A stretch of 64,000 bases of DNA, taken from assembly GCF_058153355.1 (NCBI RefSeq), contig NZ_CM177019.1. One strand, 5' to 3'. Below, piece after piece: positions 49,825 to 55,800 of this stretch. Each line of letters begins with the position of its first letter. Within the stretch, counting starts at the first letter, position 1. The position numbers are program-made.

Positions 49825-52800
49825 TCATGAAGGGTGTTCATAGACACAATCATTTTAGCCCCATTACTGACAATAATGATAATTGATATTCTGGTTGTAT
49901 CGAAAATAAGTCTGAATTATCAGAAGGTTTATCATGAAAATACTCGTTGCAGGGGCGACAGGAAGCATTGGCCTTCATGTCGTGAATACCGCAATTAAAA
50001 TGGGCCATCAGCCCGTCGCGCTGGTCAGAAATAAACGCAAAGTAAAATTGCTTCCTCGTGAAACAGATGTTTTTTACGGCGATATTTCAATGCCGGAAAC
50101 ACTCACCGAATTACCGAAAGATATTGATGCCATCATCTTCACGCTCGGTTCTGATGTCCAGGGGCGTATTGGTGCCAGAGCGATCGATTACGGAGGAGTA
50201 CGTAATATTTTGCGAATATTCAAGGATACACCTGTCCATATCGCCCTGATGACCACGATTGGCGTGACTGAACGACTCAGCACCTGGAATCAACGTACTG
50301 AGGTTCATGACTGGAAAAGACGTGCCGAGCGTCTGGTCAGGGCAAGTGGTCATCCCTATACCATCGTCAGGCCCGGCTGGTTTGATTACAACAATGATAA
50401 TGAGCACAGAATCGTTATGCTTCAGGGAGACAGGCGTCATGCAGGAACACCGGAAGATGGTGTGATATCCCGGGGTCAAATCGCCCAGGTTCTGGTCAAT
50501 GCCCTGACCAACGATGAGGCAAAAAATAAAACGTTCGAGCTAGTGGCTGAGCGAGGCGAAGCACAGCAGGATCTTACCCCACTGTTTGCAGACCTGAAGA
50601 CTGATGATCCACAGAAAAATGATGGGGTTTTGGACATCGACAATATGTCTCTGCGTGAAGAACCTGAGTGCATTATCAAAGAGCTGAACCTGTATTCAAA
50701 AAATTAAACAATCTACAACCCTGACAATTTTGTCATATAGCAGTCAGCCTCATGACAGCTTAAGTCTGTATATTTGAATGTACAGAGGGGGATAGTTCCC
50801 CTGATACGAGCCCAGTTTCAAACACAAATTTTAAAAAAGGTATTAGATATGAAATCACTACTTATTACTTCATTGGTCATGGGATTTATTACAGTGAATA
50901 CCGCATCTGCCGCTCAGGAAATTAACCATGCAGATGGGAAAGAAAAGATCGGTGTAATATCAGCCAGCAATGCCTATACGCTTGATGATTTATCGAATGC
51001 GCTCTCTCGTAAGGCTGATGAGCAAGGAGCAACGTCGTTCAAAATTCTGTCAACCACGGGGAATAACCGGTTACACGGGGTTGCTGAAATATATAAGTAA
51101 ATCATTAGCATCCTGAGCAGGATGTGTCTCAGCCCTCTTATAGCGAGCGTCGTTCTATGTTTAGAACAGAAGACATCATCGACGAGATAACTCAATGGAT
51201 TGATTCAAACTTACATAAACCGATGAAGATAGAGGATGTTGCTGCGCGGGCAGGATACTCCAAGTGGCATCTTCAGCGGATTTTTGTACAGGTAAAAGAA
51301 GTTAGTCTTGGGAAGTACATAAGAGATACGAAACTTAGACTAGCAGCAAAAGATCTTATCGAGACTAATGAGCCAGTGATGGTTATCGCCTTTAAATATG
51401 GATTCGATTCACAACAAACTTTTACTCGGGTTTTCTCTAAAAAATATAAATTGCCACCATTGAAATATAGAAACGCGGAAAAGAGAAAAAAACATTAACA
51501 GTTCAAAGTTATCACCCTTACGTAACATAACCAGAATAATAATATATTCCAGCATCAAAAGTTGACGTTTTTTTGGTCTGGAAGCTTCTTGTTCGGAACA
51601 AAGCTCTGCCTGGTTTTTAACATACAATGTCTAGACCATGACCTTCAGCCATTACACATCAGCCAAAATATCGAACAGAACCAGATCGATATCCAATCAT
51701 TTCCCCCTCGTGGCAAGCCATTAACTTTTAGATATGTTATTTACTCTTGCAGTCGATTCATGGCACTCAGCAGACAAGCTACCTGAGATGAAGATCAGCT
51801 GCGAGTAAGGAGAAGACATAGACAGGAGGATGCTGATAATATTTCCCCATTGGATTACCGTTTCCAACAGGGGTATGAATGGAATACCAAACTTCATTGC
51901 AGAAAATATTGTCAGATGACCCTGTGAGAATGAAGATTCTCTATGCAGTCCAAGCACTGGAACTCAATGATAGCTGGATTGGGGCGGGATTCGTACGGAA
52001 CGCTGTTTGGGATCACTTTCATGAATATGGGCTAAGCCCTGTTTCTGGTGATGTCGATGTTGTCTGGTTTGACTGCGAATACTGTAACCCAGACCATGAT
52101 CGTTACCTTGAAGACACGCTTAGGCAACAACTACCTTCGTTTGACTGGTCGGTGAAGAATCAAGCCAGAATGCATCAACGTAATGGTGATTCTCCCTATA
52201 CGTCAACGACAAATGCTTTACTGCACTGGCCTGAAACAGCTACGGCTGTAGCTGTCAGATTGGGTAAGAACGGTCTCGATATCACTGCGCCTTATGGACT
52301 TTCTGACTTATTTGAACTGCGTTTACGACCAACTCCTGCATTTGAACGTGAAAAGTTGGGTACTTTTAAACAACGGGTCACTACGAAGCAATGGTTGGAA
52401 CGTTATCCCAGGTTACAACTCACCGTTTCCTTATAATCTAGATATACAAATATCCCGGTTCTTGCGGTTCGATTGTCTGATTGACCGTTCGCACCAGACA
52501 TGAAGTGTACGGACTGACTGGCTGAGCAGTAGGTTTGCTATGAGCGTGGAGCAGACGTTAGTCTGAATACTCGATGATATACTTCACCACAGAAATATCC
52601 ATTTTATAAGAACCGATACTTTAATTACTTCATAAATCAGCACATTCTAGATTTCCAAGTTTCTGAATTACAGAATCTGGATTCGCACAGGCATACTCCA
52701 TGACACTTAACCAAACGATTTTTTGTTTCGGGAATCCGTTGTGGTAAAACTGATACCTCAGGCCGGGGGCACAGATGAGAAGAGCAGGATCTCGTGCCAT

Positions 52801-55800
52801 CAACATCTCAATGTCCGATTCAGTATCGTCAGCAAGAACACTCCAATCTAGCTGTAAACTATTCAGCTCACTTTGAAGAGCCTGAATGTATTTCTCAGTT
52901 AGAGAATATGGGAAATAGCCTCTAAGCAATGGCGAACGGCCTAGTGTAGGGCTGGGGCTATGGATAAAGTAAACGACCTTATTTGTCATTGTTCTCCTTG
53001 TTTATGTTTATACAGCTATTAGTTGGTAACGAACTAACGGTTTGCCTCTACTTTCAGTGCTTTGGCGAACAATATTATATCTCATGTAAAAAGTATAACT
53101 TTTAGCCAATTGATATGCCAACGTCCACTCCTGGCACTAAGCAGGCTGTCAGACGAAAGTGTAACGTTTCAAAAGTAAGCGTAAATGCAAATCAGTACAA
53201 AAAAAATTACTGTGGTTGAACTCCTCCAGAACGGAGGAGCTAAGCTTTAGATTTCACGCTACCTACTGATAAGAACCAATTTAAGGTTCGTATCATAAGG
53301 CCATGATTACTTTATATTTTCCAATGTTATCAATATAATCCGCATACCACTGCATCATCTCCCTACGTCCTTCCAAATACAACGCATGGTTATACGTCCC
53401 ACGAATCGCATTCTTATCAACGTGAGCCAGCTGGGTTTCAATCCACGCTGTATTGAACCCTTCCTCATGCAAAATCGTACTCATCGTGTGGCGGAAACCA
53501 TGCCCCGTGACCCTCCCCGTGTATCCAATCCGCTTAAACACCTGATTAATACTCGCTTCGCTCATTGTTTTGCGAGGGTCATTCCTCCCAGGAAACACTA
53601 GGGGATACTGTCCAGACATCACTTTGAGTTGCTGTACGATTTCCAGCGCTTGGGTAGAGAGGGGCACCAGATGAGACCGTTTCATCTTCATACGCTCTGC
53701 AGGTATTTCCCACACCGCTTTTTCAAGATCAAACTCACTCCAGAAAGCACCTCGAAGCTCGCCGGTGCGAACTCCCGTAAGGATCAGCAGCCGAGCGGCA
53801 AGAACAACTAGCGGGCTTCCTGTATAGCTGGATAGGGCTTTAAAGAAGTCTGGTAACTCTTCAACAGTCAGGAAGGGATATGTTTCGATTCATGCCCTGA
53901 CATCGCGCTGGTTATATCCGCGGCAGGATTGTATTCCGCACGACCAGTAACTATGGCGTAACGAAAGACTTCGCTGCAGCGCTGGCGAACCTTTTTGGCC
54001 TTCTCTGTCGCGCCACGGCTTTCCATTCGACGTAGCACATTAAGCAGAACCAGCGGTTTGATTTCATTCACCGGCAGTTGACCGATATAGGGGAAAATAT
54101 CTTTATTAAAGGCCTCCAGAATGTCAGAAGCATACCCTTCTGACCACCGGCTCACCTTCGTACCGTGCCATTCAAGCGCCACAGCCTGAAACGTATTATT
54201 GAGTTGCACATCGCGAACCAGCTTTTCTTCTTTCTTGGCGAAAGACGGATCGATGCCCTCGGCCAGCTTTTTCTTGGCTTCATCGCGTAGTGCCCTCGCT
54301 TGTACAAGGGACACTGCTGGATAGACACTAAAAGCCATACGCTTCTCTTTTCCATAGAAGCGATACTTCATCCGCCAGTATCTGGAACCAGGGGGAACAA
54401 CCTCAAGATACAAACCAGCACCATCCGCCAGCTTATAGGCTTTCTCTCTGGGTTTAGCAGCGTCTACCTGTCGTGCATTAAGCTTCATTGGGGCATCTCC
54501 CTGGACCGAACATAGAATCCCCCCACTAATGCCCCCAACTGCAACTTGATTTCGGTTGAGTCCAGTTGATAACAGGAGACAAGATACGAGCCAGAAACCA
54601 CAGTGTACGGGCTTTTAGTTGATTTCGGTAGACTTGGGAAGAGTTTGAAATGGTGCCGATAATAGGAGTCGAACCTACGACCTTCGCATTACGAATGCGC
54701 TGCTCTACCAACTGAGCTATATCGGCCCTGAAAGGACATGTTCACGAGCGTGAATCACGGTGGACAAGGTTAAAACTAACCGGGCGATGCGTCAATGGCC
54801 TTGTGAATCAAATGGCTACTTTTGCATCACCCGGTTTTATTTACGCACGAATGGTGTAATCACCAATGCCGATCCACTTGTAGGTGGTCAGAGCTTCCAG
54901 CCCCATTGGGCCGCGCGCGTGGAGTTTTTGTGTGCTTACCGCAACTTCCGCCCCCAGACCAAACTGGCCGCCGTCGGTAAACCGCGTAGAGGCGTTAACG
55001 TAAACAGCGGAGGAGTCCACTTCGTTGACAAAACGCTGGGCATTACGCATATCGCGGGTCAGGATCGCATCGGAGTGTTGCGTACCGTGTTCACGAATAT
55101 GGGCGATGGCATCGTCAAGATCGCTGACGATTTTGACGTTCAAGTCTAATGACAGGAACTCATCGTCATACTCTTCGGCTTTAACAGCCACCACCTTCGC
55201 TGGGCCTGCCTGCAACTGCGCCAGCGCAGTTGCGTCAGCGTGTAATGTCACGCCGCTTTCCGCCATTTGCTTGCTTAATGCGGGCAGGAAGCTATCTGCG
55301 ATGTTTTTATTTACCAGCAACGTTTCTACCGTATTACACGTGCTCGGGCGCTGAGTTTTCGCGTTGACAATCACTTTCAATGCTTCAGCGATCTCTGCAC
55401 TTTCATCAACGTAAATATGGCATACGCCTATACCACCTGTGATTACCGGAATCGTCGACTGCTCGCGGCACAGTTTATGCAACCCAGCCCCGCCGCGTGG
55501 GATCAGCATGTCGATGTATTTATCCATACGCAGCAGTTCACTGACCAGCGCACGGTCAGGATTATCAATCGCCTGCACGGTACCCGCCGGTAAACCGCAG
55601 GAATTCAGAGCATCCTGAATCACCGCTACTGTTGCAGCGTTAGTGCGACAGGTTTCTTTGCCGCCGCGCAGGATCACTGCGTTACCGGTTTTCAGGCACA
55701 GTGAAGCAACATCAACCGTCACGTTCGGGCGCGCTTCATAAATTACACCAATCACCCCCAGCGGTACGCGACGACGCTCCAGACGCAGGCCGCTGTCCAG

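What the first reader, a model, noticed from the sequence alone, without database searches (positions are those of the whole stretch)
50708..54650. Degraded integrase-linked islet occupies the thrW hotspot instead of CP4-6
The thrW 3' end (54651) faces a P4-type integrase gene 163 bp away, the classic tRNA-island arrangement. thrW is the CP4-6 attachment site in K-12. Here only about 3.9 kb remains: the frameshifted integrase plus four small AT-rich genes. Sampled 60-mers are 27 %, 38 % and 42 % GC, against 62 % for one at 45.0 kb. I found no second copy of the thrW 3' end (attR) by eye in the stretches I read most closely (37.37-37.49 kb and 50.7-53.3 kb), so the distal boundary is inferred only from the composition change after 50707.
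Basis: partly seen in the sequence, partly recalled or inferred. Interest (0 to 1): 0.5.

Follow-up and report, generated by a model that had tools for sequence, protein, structure and literature searches.

The report
Truncated mosaic genomic island at thrW

Summary
The raw observations hold. tRNA-Thr(CGT) lies at 54651-54726(-). A P4-like (DUF4102-type) integrase gene starts 162 nt beyond its 3' end and is broken by a single 1-bp deletion near 53880. GC is 41% over 50.7-53.3 kb against 49% for the window. No second copy of the thrW 3' end exists anywhere in the 64 kb. CP4-6 is absent.

The distal boundary at 50707 is not an element boundary. Two of the four "small AT-rich genes", a BhsA-like DUF1471 gene and a RamA-like regulator, are the end of a conserved six-gene module (46.85-51.81 kb). 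That module is syntenic in more than 10 genera. It lies beside the same integrase at thrW, beside other integrases at glyU and selC, and on plasmids. Its synonymous divergence (0.2-0.5) is far below that of flanking core genes (1.4-1.7).

E. coli strains with a near-empty thrW site differ from the window over 41061-54644 (13.6 kb). Cross-genus synteny extends the island to 37461 (17.2 kb), where it is cut off at paoD. Only 51.8-53.1 kb is strain-specific cargo (an NTP_transf_6 gene and a 119-aa gene). In relatives that slot holds Lamassu, Hachiman, GapS4 or BREX. This is a new member of a known kind, of modest interest.

The parts
54651..54726 (-). thrW, tRNA-Thr(CGT). Its 3' ~50 nt (54649-54702) is the att core, which MG1655 duplicates as the CP4-6 attR.
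   Evidence: ARAGORN; Rfam; 54-nt match to the MG1655 attR next to intF. Homology with near-empty E. coli sites resumes at 54645.
54489..54650 (-). Integrase-thrW spacer (the attL side). It is conserved with the thrW-type islands of other genera.
   Evidence: blastn of 53327-54825 against L029, L032 and L034 at 90-91%.
53293..54488 (-). P4-like (DUF4102-type) tyrosine integrase pseudogene with a single 1-bp deletion at ~53879/53880. It reconstructs to 398 aa.
   Evidence: Pfam domains. Alignment to the intact R18 orthologue. Open downstream frame containing the R, HxxR and Y boxes. 95-97% aa identity to intact orthologues in R18, Kluyvera, Atlantibacter and Buttiauxella. dN on the window branch is raised 2-3 fold.
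53121..53292 (.). Conserved non-coding flank 3' of the integrase; the right edge of the variable cargo slot.
   Evidence: About 86% matches next to integrases in other E. coli; matches in Hafnia and Kluyvera loci start at 53121 and 53171.
52630..52989 (-). orf119, a strain-specific cargo gene from a small Enterobacterales family. It has a PTS-IIB(cellobiose)-like fold without the active-site Cys. Function unknown.
   Evidence: 32 homologues, none in a Pfam family; variable contexts; model pLDDT 79 with top PDB hits IIB-cellobiose at TM 0.6-0.7; no cysteine in the loop after strand 1, read from the alignment.
51879..52436 (+). NTP_transf_6 (PF06042) nucleotidyltransferase-fold gene; strain-specific cargo of uncharacterised function.
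   Evidence: Pfam E 8e-55; PDB 2LA3 'uncharacterized protein'; homologues are solitary genes in unrelated contexts; no DNA match in 5,426 complete E. coli genomes.
46852..51812 (+). Module B, the conserved mobile module. It holds AKR 46958-47851, AKR 47878-48867, LysR 48892-49824(-), an NAD(P)-binding NmrA-like gene 49934-50707, DUF1471/BhsA-like 50849-51100, the RamA-like regulator 51157-51498, and a 314-nt conserved tail.
   Evidence: Pfam and NCBIfam. Synteny at 83-99% aa in 16 loci from more than 10 genera. Left edge constant at 46847-46899; right edge at 51458-51812. On plasmids. dS 0.2-0.5 against 1.4-1.7 for proA, proB and phoE.
41061..46851 (-). Module A, the variable slot 1. It holds an OYE flavin oxidoreductase 41178-42305, SDR 42345-43178, NAD(P)-binding gene 43251-43901, two alpha/beta hydrolases 43908-45772, and a divergent LysR 45869-46798(+).
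   Evidence: Pfam. Absent from near-empty E. coli thrW sites, with the break at 41060. Found once elsewhere, at 92%, at the end of another island beside ldtA-cobT in E. coli C8.
37461..41060 (-). Module 0: MFS transporter 37491-38684, alpha/beta hydrolase 38760-39917, LysR 40083-40967(+). Many E. coli share it beside paoD, but it is also part of the homologous islands of other genera.
   Evidence: 98.9% to E. coli EC42405. 93-95% nt and dS 0.11-0.26 to the Citrobacter amalonaticus (glyU) and Atlantibacter (thrW) islands; 95% nt to E. coli FDAARGOS_1373 (glyU).
37367..37460 (.). Truncation junction between core paoD (stop at 37312) and island DNA. No att repeat is present here.
   Evidence: MG1655 homology ends at 37366; island homology starts at 37461-37466; no thrW-like sequence.

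Best explanation
The feature is the integrase-proximal part of a mosaic, tRNA-targeting genomic island of the P4-like-integrase / CP4 type. It is now fixed in the chromosome.

How it arose (inferred from the family). A DUF4102-type tyrosine integrase recombined an element into the 3' end of thrW, with the element re-supplying the end of the tRNA gene.

Layout, reading from thrW: integrase; a short exchangeable cargo slot; conserved module B (two aldo-keto reductases, LysR, an NmrA-like protein, a BhsA-like protein and a RamA-like regulator); a second variable slot; module 0 (LysR, hydrolase, MFS). In a complete relative more redox and efflux genes follow. They end in a CP4-type module (YfjJ, GTPase, DUF932, antirestriction, RadC, DUF987, YeeU/CbtA) and then attR.

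State in this window. Everything beyond 37461 is gone, attR included, and the integrase carries a 1-bp frameshift. The element can therefore neither excise nor transfer by itself.

Status of each step. Shown here: the anatomy, the frameshift, the absence of attR, synteny with the same and with different integrases, horizontal spread of the modules, and defence systems in the cargo slot of relatives. Inferred: the original integration event, and the order of decay. The present configuration could also have arisen by homologous replacement between proA-thrW and module 0. That the modules function in redox/detoxification and stress regulation is also inferred.
For: Anatomy.

Same integrase with module B at thrW. 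Kluyvera sp., two Atlantibacter and a Buttiauxella locus carry the integrase at 95-97% aa, 2.5-5.4 kb from module B. In Kluyvera it lies beside proA-proB-phoE, as here.

Module B next to other integrases. It lies beside glyU-type integrases (62-63% aa) in E. coli FDAARGOS_1373, an Enterobacter locus and a Citrobacter locus. Its last three genes lie beside a selC-type integrase (61% aa) in 27 complete E. coli genomes.

Full architecture. The FDAARGOS_1373 island is 48.6 kb, is bounded by an 18-nt repeat of the tRNA-Gly 3' end, and ends in a CP4-type module.

Horizontal spread. Against Kluyvera, dS is 0.27-0.50 for module B and 0.39 for the integrase, but 1.39-1.66 for proA, proB and phoE. Values are similarly low against Hafnia and Tatumella. 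Module 0 gives dS 0.11-0.26 against Atlantibacter and Citrobacter. Module B is also on Klebsiella, Pantoea and E. coli plasmids.

Strain polymorphism. Near-empty or differently filled thrW sites in E. coli break from the window at 41060 and 54645.

Cargo slot. It holds Lamassu, Hachiman, a PDC-M40B candidate, GapS4ab or BREX in relatives. The GapS4a proteins of a thrW-type and a glyU-type island in different genera are 99% identical.

Immobility. No attR. The frameshift is identical in three other assemblies, one of which may be the window's source. dN is raised on the window's integrase branch.
Against: Module 0 (37461-41060) is 98.9% identical to other E. coli and sits beside paoD in many strains that have no integrase. 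It could be counted as E. coli backbone that islands captured, rather than as island DNA. On that reading the island is 13.6 kb.

No thrW-type relative could be read to its distal end, because loci were limited to +/-10 kb. The full architecture is therefore borrowed from a glyU-type island.

In Silvania, module B diverges as much as the core genes (dS 0.9-2.7). In some lineages it may thus be an old resident beside thrW rather than a recent arrival.

Modules A, B and 0 have host-like GC (48-57%), so composition gives no support for the extended boundary.

The direction of events (gain, or differential loss) was not resolved.
Confidence: 0.75

Rival explanations
1. One reading: the island remnant is only 50708-54650, made of the integrase and four AT-rich cargo genes. 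Everything to the left is native chromosome.
For: GC falls from about 0.51 to 0.37-0.45 near 50.6 kb. The four genes are small and are absent from most E. coli.
Against: Synteny runs unbroken across 50707 in 16 loci of other genera, in E. coli FDAARGOS_1373 and on plasmids. DUF1471 and the RamA-like gene always travel with the AKR-LysR genes. Genes on both sides of 50707 show the same low dS (0.2-0.5) against other genera. The low GC of these two genes is a property of the module wherever it occurs, not a junction.
Confidence: 0.05
2. The minimal-element version: only the integrase and the cargo slot (about 51813-54650, 2.8 kb) are the integrative element. Module B is an older neighbour of thrW, and the element inserted between them.
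For: In Silvania, module B abuts thrW-proA and diverges like the core genes. The slot content is exchanged independently of module B, as shown by the 99%-identical GapS4a. Breakpoints cluster at 51458-51812 and 53121-53335.
Against: Silvania still carries an N-terminal integrase stub, so it is a decayed island and not a virgin site. Module B lies beside three different integrases at three different tRNA genes and on plasmids, which a fixed thrW neighbour would not. Against Kluyvera, the integrase and module B have the same dS (about 0.3-0.5), far below the adjacent proA and proB. No att repeat is present at 51.5-51.9 kb.
Confidence: 0.15
3. The frameshift is a sequencing or assembly error, and the integrase, and hence the island, is still functional.
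For: There is a single 1-bp indel in an otherwise intact gene.
Against: Three other assemblies, including a Logan assembly of a separate run, are 100% identical through the site, although one may be the window's own source. The deletion is in a TT dinucleotide, not a long homopolymer. dN on the window branch is raised. Even an intact integrase would have no attR to act on.
Confidence: 0.03

Closest known systems
tRNA-linked genomic islands with P4-like (DUF4102/Arm-DNA-bind_3) integrases in E. coli. These include the 'integrase-only' defence-carrying islands of Hochhauser et al. 2023 (PMC10121019) and the thrW islands (PAI III536, VAT-PAI) listed in PMC7545054.
   Same: The integrase sits directly downstream of the tRNA 3' end. 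Cargo is variable and strain-specific. Relatives carry defence systems next to the integrase. No other mobility genes lie nearby. thrW is a recognised hotspot.
   Different: No virulence genes, and no known defence system in this copy. The integrase is frameshifted, attR is absent, and the distal half is deleted. The conserved cargo is a redox/LysR module with a RamA-like regulator.
The 48.6-kb glyU island of E. coli FDAARGOS_1373 (NZ_CP069945.1, about 3,811,230-3,859,883).
   Same: Modules 0 and B are collinear with the window at 95% and 92% nt. It has the same two variable slots and the same integrase-module B arrangement.
   Different: Its integrase is 62% identical and targets tRNA-Gly(CCC). 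The slots hold GapS4ab and what RefSeq calls an ATP-dependent nuclease plus UvrD helicase (Gabija-like; my reading). It is complete, with a CP4-type distal module and an 18-nt attR.
Cryptic prophage CP4-6 of E. coli K-12 (thrW, 262898-297205).
   Same: Same attachment site and same att core at the thrW 3' end. Both are decayed integrative elements.
   Different: No sequence is shared apart from the thrW core. CP4-6 uses IntF at the far end of the element. Its ykfI/yafW end lies next to thrW.
MarA/SoxS/Rob/RamA family of small AraC-type activators (for the gene at 51157-51498).
   Same: A stand-alone ~113-aa two-HTH protein. The best NCBIfam match is RamA (156 bits), followed by Rob, SoxS and MarA.
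   Different: It scores below the RamA equivalog cut-off (180). It is not next to ramR/romA. It lies in a mobile module beside a BhsA-like gene. Its targets are untested.

Membership tests
tRNA-integrated genomic island with P4-like tyrosine integrase | Integrase gene immediately downstream of the 3' end of a tRNA gene and in the same orientation | tested here: met
   thrW is at 54651-54726(-) and the integrase ATG at 54488(-), 162 nt apart.
tRNA-integrated genomic island with P4-like tyrosine integrase | Integrase with an arm-binding DUF4102 domain, a SAM-like core-binding domain and a catalytic domain with the R..HxxR..Y boxes | tested here: met
   PF13356, PF22022 and PF00589. VRTGELR, GHGFRH and RGTYNH are read in the reconstructed protein. 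The closest phage integrases are only 47% identical, and P4 Int itself was not compared.
tRNA-integrated genomic island with P4-like tyrosine integrase | Direct repeat of the tRNA 3' end (attR) at the distal boundary | tested here: not met
   No copy within 64 kb at up to 3 mismatches or by short-word BLAST. A complete relative does have one.
tRNA-integrated genomic island with P4-like tyrosine integrase | Intact, potentially active integrase | tested here: not met
   A 1-bp deletion at about 53880 gives a stop at 53868.
tRNA-integrated genomic island with P4-like tyrosine integrase | Presence/absence polymorphism among strains, and evidence of horizontal transfer | tested here: met
   0 of 5,426 complete E. 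coli genomes hold at least 80% of 36-56 kb. Near-empty sites exist. dS is 0.2-0.5 against 1.4-1.7 for core genes.
tRNA-integrated genomic island with P4-like tyrosine integrase | Atypical base composition | tested here: inconclusive
   Only 50.7-53.3 kb is low (41.4%). Modules 0, A and most of B are 48-57%, like the host.
CP4-6 cryptic prophage | IntF integrase together with the ykfI/yafW...yagK gene set | tested here: not met
   blastn of the window against MG1655 260-303 kb matches only pao, thrW and proBA.
P4-like phage satellite | Primase/helicase (alpha), sid/psu/delta and cos alongside the integrase | tested here: not met
   All ORFs from 37.4 to 53.3 kb have metabolic or regulatory Pfam domains or none. 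The four genes nearest the integrase gave no functionally annotated phage family in PHROGs (only unnamed families and a generic AraC-type 'transcriptional regulator').
Defence island / defence hotspot | A known anti-phage system in the integrase-adjacent slot | tested here: not met
   No significant PADLOC hit for either slot gene; the best is E 0.06. Relatives carry Lamassu, Hachiman, GapS4 or BREX at the same slot.
RamA (NF012144 equivalog) | Score at or above the curated cut-off of 180 bits | tested here: not met
   156.4 bits. It is a member of the wider MarA/SoxS/Rob/RamA group only.

The most novel reading that the evidence does not exclude
The BhsA-like and RamA-like pair may not be passive cargo. 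It may be the conserved integrase-proximal module of a modular island family. That family swaps integrases (thrW, glyU, selC) and exchanges defence cassettes at a fixed slot. On this reading the two uncharacterised genes in the window's slot would be unrecognised single-gene anti-phage or stress determinants: the PF06042 nucleotidyltransferase and the PTS-IIB-fold orf119. The mobile RamA-like activator would alter efflux and drug tolerance in recipients.
Probability: 0.12. Interest if true: 0.55.

Novelty: new member of a known kind. Interest (0 to 1): 0.3.

Why it matters
For annotation, a GC step is a poor island boundary here. The real unit is four times larger and mostly host-like in composition.

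For biology, the locus gives a clean example of a modular island family spread across Enterobacterales. Its conserved redox/regulator modules are joined to interchangeable integrases. A defined slot next to the integrase turns over defence systems. A MarA/RamA-family regulator travelling on such islands and on Klebsiella plasmids could matter for intrinsic drug tolerance, but that is untested. None of this is unexpected for a tRNA hotspot.

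Tried and rejected
- Rfam scan of 50-55 kb: only the tRNA, plus a chance antisense hit.
- Promoter and terminator scan: at or below the shuffled expectation.
- Repeat search of 36-56 kb: only chance-level 16-21-mers, none flanking the island.
- PADLOC, PHROGs and NCBIfam on the NTP_transf_6 gene and orf119: nothing useful.
- A test of whether the two slot genes form a conserved pair. Four orf119 homologue contexts and three NTP_transf_6 homologue contexts show no co-occurrence and no integrase linkage, so they are independent solitary genes.
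- A possible link of orf119 to Rhs/immunity arrays was seen in one context only and was not pursued.
- The K-12 record NZ_CP047127 proved to carry a large deletion here and was useless for comparison. MG1655 was used instead.
- I first took the window LysR at 40083-40967 for yagP. It is not (28% identity). K-12 yagP is the 3' fragment of a different LysR that lies next to thrW in EC42405-type strains.
- The 13-nt inverted match to thrW at 43983 lies inside a hydrolase gene at chance level and was rejected.
- The literature search for PF06042 found no functional study.

Full report
**1. Observation**

The window carries one tRNA gene, tRNA-Thr(CGT), at 54651-54726 on the minus strand. It lies downstream of proB-proA and is therefore thrW.
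- An integrase gene starts 162 nt beyond its 3' end (ATG at 54488). It appears as two ORFs: 206 aa with Arm-DNA-bind_3 and Phage_int_M, and 140 aa with Phage_integrase.
- Aligned to the intact 398-aa orthologue beside thrW in E. coli R18 (91% nt), the only lesion is a 1-bp deletion at about 53879/53880. The remaining 196 codons are open and contain the catalytic boxes.
- Three other assemblies are 100% identical through this site. One of them may be the window's own source. The frameshift is very probably real.
- GC over 50708-53292 is 41.4% against 49.3% for the window. That is about 1.5 sd of 1-kb windows, and other stretches are as low.
- No second copy of the thrW 3' end exists in the 64 kb at any tolerance tried.
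- MG1655 annotation confirms that CP4-6 starts within thrW. The window shares nothing with CP4-6 but the att core.

**2. What the four small genes are**
- 50849-51100: a DUF1471 protein closest to BhsA.
- 51157-51498: a stand-alone two-HTH AraC-type activator. Its best match is RamA (156 bits, below the 180-bit equivalog cut-off), followed by Rob, SoxS and MarA.
- 51879-52436: a PF06042 nucleotidyltransferase-fold protein of unknown function.
- 52630-52989 (minus strand): a 119-aa protein from a small Enterobacterales family (32 hits). It has no Pfam family. Its predicted fold is PTS-IIB(cellobiose)-like, and the alignment shows no cysteine where IIB-cellobiose has its catalytic one.

Neither of the last two genes hits a defence model. 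They are not found together elsewhere, and their homologues sit in unrelated contexts. No complete E. coli genome has DNA matching them.

**3. The boundary at 50707 is not an element boundary**

A scan of species-representative genomes with the RamA-like protein returned 17 loci with a close relative (80-95% aa). In 16 of them, 15 with the RamA-like gene intact, the order AKR-AKR-LysR-NAD(P)-binding protein-DUF1471-RamA-like is kept, at 83-99% aa identity.
- The genera are Kluyvera, Huaxiibacter, Tatumella, Hafnia, Raoultella, Citrobacter, Enterobacter, Atlantibacter, Silvania and Buttiauxella, plus an unnamed Enterobacteriaceae bacterium.
- Silvania lacks the NAD(P)-binding gene. In Atlantibacter sp. 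RC6 the RamA-like gene is truncated.
- At the DNA level the block (module B) always begins at window 46847-46899. It ends between 51458 and 51812.
- Homology therefore runs straight through 50707. The low GC of the last two genes is a property of the module itself.

**4. The module travels with integrases**
- In Kluyvera sp., two Atlantibacter loci and a Buttiauxella locus, an intact integrase 95-97% identical to the window's lies 2.5-5.4 kb past the RamA-like gene, followed by tRNA-Thr(CGT). In Kluyvera, proA-proB-phoE follow, exactly as here.
- In E. coli FDAARGOS_1373, Enterobacter sp. RIT637 and C. amalonaticus the same module is followed by a tRNA-Gly(CCC) gene. An integrase 62-63% identical precedes that tRNA in the first two.
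- In 27 complete E. coli genomes the last three genes of the module abut a 61%-identical integrase at tRNA-Sec.
- The module is also on Klebsiella, Pantoea and E. coli plasmids at about 91% nt.
- Silvania has module B directly beside thrW-proA. It still keeps an 84-codon N-terminal stub of the integrase. Hafnia has an internally deleted integrase.

**5. Horizontal origin**
- Between the window and Kluyvera, dS is 0.27-0.50 for module B genes and 0.39 for the integrase. For the adjacent proA, proB and phoE it is 1.39-1.66.
- Values against Hafnia and Tatumella, which belong to other families, are equally low.
- Silvania is the exception, with dS 0.9-2.7 for module B, about the same as for its core genes.

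**6. How far the island extends**
- E. coli strains with a short thrW-paoD interval match the window up to 41060 and again from 54645. These are EC42405, NRZ14408 and Z0117EC0005. In between they hold 0.9-6.9 kb of other DNA. By that comparison the variable segment is 41061-54644, or 13.6 kb.
- The stretch 37461-41060 (MFS, alpha/beta hydrolase, LysR) is shared with those E. coli at 98.9%. It also lies at the corresponding position of the islands of Atlantibacter (thrW), C. amalonaticus (glyU) and FDAARGOS_1373 (glyU). Identity to those is 93-95% nt, and dS to the first two is 0.11-0.26.
- MG1655 homology stops at 37366, 54 nt after paoD.
- I therefore read 37461-54650 (17.2 kb) as island-derived DNA, with the first 3.6 kb old and widespread in E. 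coli. That last point is inference, and the conservative size is 13.6 kb.

**7. What a complete member looks like**

The FDAARGOS_1373 island runs 48.6 kb from tRNA-Gly to an 18-nt repeat of the tRNA 3' end beside yqeG. Its order is as follows:
- the integrase and GapS4ab;
- module B;
- a nuclease plus UvrD helicase;
- module 0;
- about 20 kb of redox, efflux and regulator genes;
- a CP4-type end module (YfjJ, GTPase, DUF932, antirestriction, RadC, DUF987, YeeU/CbtA).

Other loci reshuffle these sub-modules. The window keeps only the proximal third and lacks attR. With the frameshift, this makes it immobile. dN on the window's integrase branch is about 0.016-0.022, against 0.006-0.009 among intact orthologues. 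That is consistent with some time spent as a pseudogene.

**8. The integrase-adjacent slot**

Between the end of module B (51458-51812) and the conserved 3' flank of the integrase (from about 53121), the content differs in every relative:
- Lamassu in Buttiauxella;
- Hachiman in Atlantibacter sp. RC6;
- GapS4ab in FDAARGOS_1373, the Atlantibacter MAG and the Enterobacter locus;
- a PDC-M40B candidate in Citrobacter;
- a 1083-aa low-GC ORF in Kluyvera;
- BREX behind the 91%-identical integrase of E. coli R18.

GapS4a is 99% identical between a thrW-type island in Atlantibacter and a glyU-type island in E. coli, while module B in those two loci is about 92% identical to the window's copy. Cassettes are therefore exchanged at this slot independently of the integrase. 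This matches the 'integrase-only' defence islands described for E. coli hotspots (PMC10121019). thrW is a recognised integration hotspot (PMC7545054). In the window the slot holds the PF06042 gene and orf119. Whether they have any defence role is unknown.

**9. Verdict**

The element is a new member of a well-known kind. The wider pattern, conserved redox/RamA-like modules joined to interchangeable integrases and a defence-exchange slot, is tidy but not surprising.

**10. Limits**
- No thrW-type relative could be followed to its attR.
- Gain versus differential loss in E. coli was not resolved.
- All functions are inferred from family membership.

Noticed in passing
window 15060-18040: A second AKR-AKR-LysR block, 86.7% nt identical to module B at 46957-49938. 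Unlike module B it is common in E. coli: 1,885 of 5,426 complete genomes, at 95-99.9%. It is a resident paralogue of the mobile module.
   Followed up: partly
L040 (MG1655) 37204-37792, compared with L002 8442-9341: K-12 yagP is the 3' fragment of the LysR gene that lies directly beside thrW in EC42405-type strains. The CP4-6 attR sits about 125-180 nt from it. K-12 therefore lost the MFS-hydrolase-LysR...SDR stretch by a deletion from the paoD end into yagP, after CP4-6 integrated.
   Followed up: partly
L029 10705-12757, L026 10704-12756, L001 22794-24834: Near-identical GapS4a/b cassettes (99% aa for GapS4a) sit in islands with different integrases (thrW-type and glyU-type) in Atlantibacter, Enterobacter and E. 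coli. This indicates a very recent exchange of the cassette alone.
   Followed up: partly
L044 (E. coli AR Bank #0349) 14035-17368, and 26 other complete genomes: A third version: a frameshifted NAD(P)-binding gene, DUF1471 and the RamA-like gene lie 184 nt from a selC-type integrase. IncFII repA and IS fragments lie just upstream, suggesting plasmid-derived DNA in the selC island.
   Followed up: no
L019 (Kluyvera sp.) 11213-11470: A second integrase C-terminal fragment (76% aa to residues 295-380) lies just downstream of the intact integrase. It looks like a relic of an earlier element at the same site.
   Followed up: no
L029 (Atlantibacter MAG) 14376-19875: About 5.5 kb is inserted between thrW (plus 100 nt of conserved upstream sequence) and proA. 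Its content was not examined.
   Followed up: no
L015 (E. coli C8) 9001-14776: The only other copy of module A (92% nt) lies at the ldtA-cobT end of a different island that carries DUF4297 and UvrD-helicase genes. Its LysR has an internal stop.
   Followed up: no
L017 (E. coli Z0117EC0005) 5929-12309: Strains 99.9% identical to the window at 15-18 kb carry a different thrW filling: an AbiEi/AbiEii pair, a 1069-aa hypothetical protein and a frameshifted integrase fragment. The thrW content therefore turns over among close relatives.
   Followed up: no
L034 (Atlantibacter sp. RC6) 9968-10279: In the Hachiman-carrying island the RamA-like gene is truncated, with a divergent C-terminus after residue ~40. 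Slot exchange can evidently erode the end of module B.
   Followed up: no
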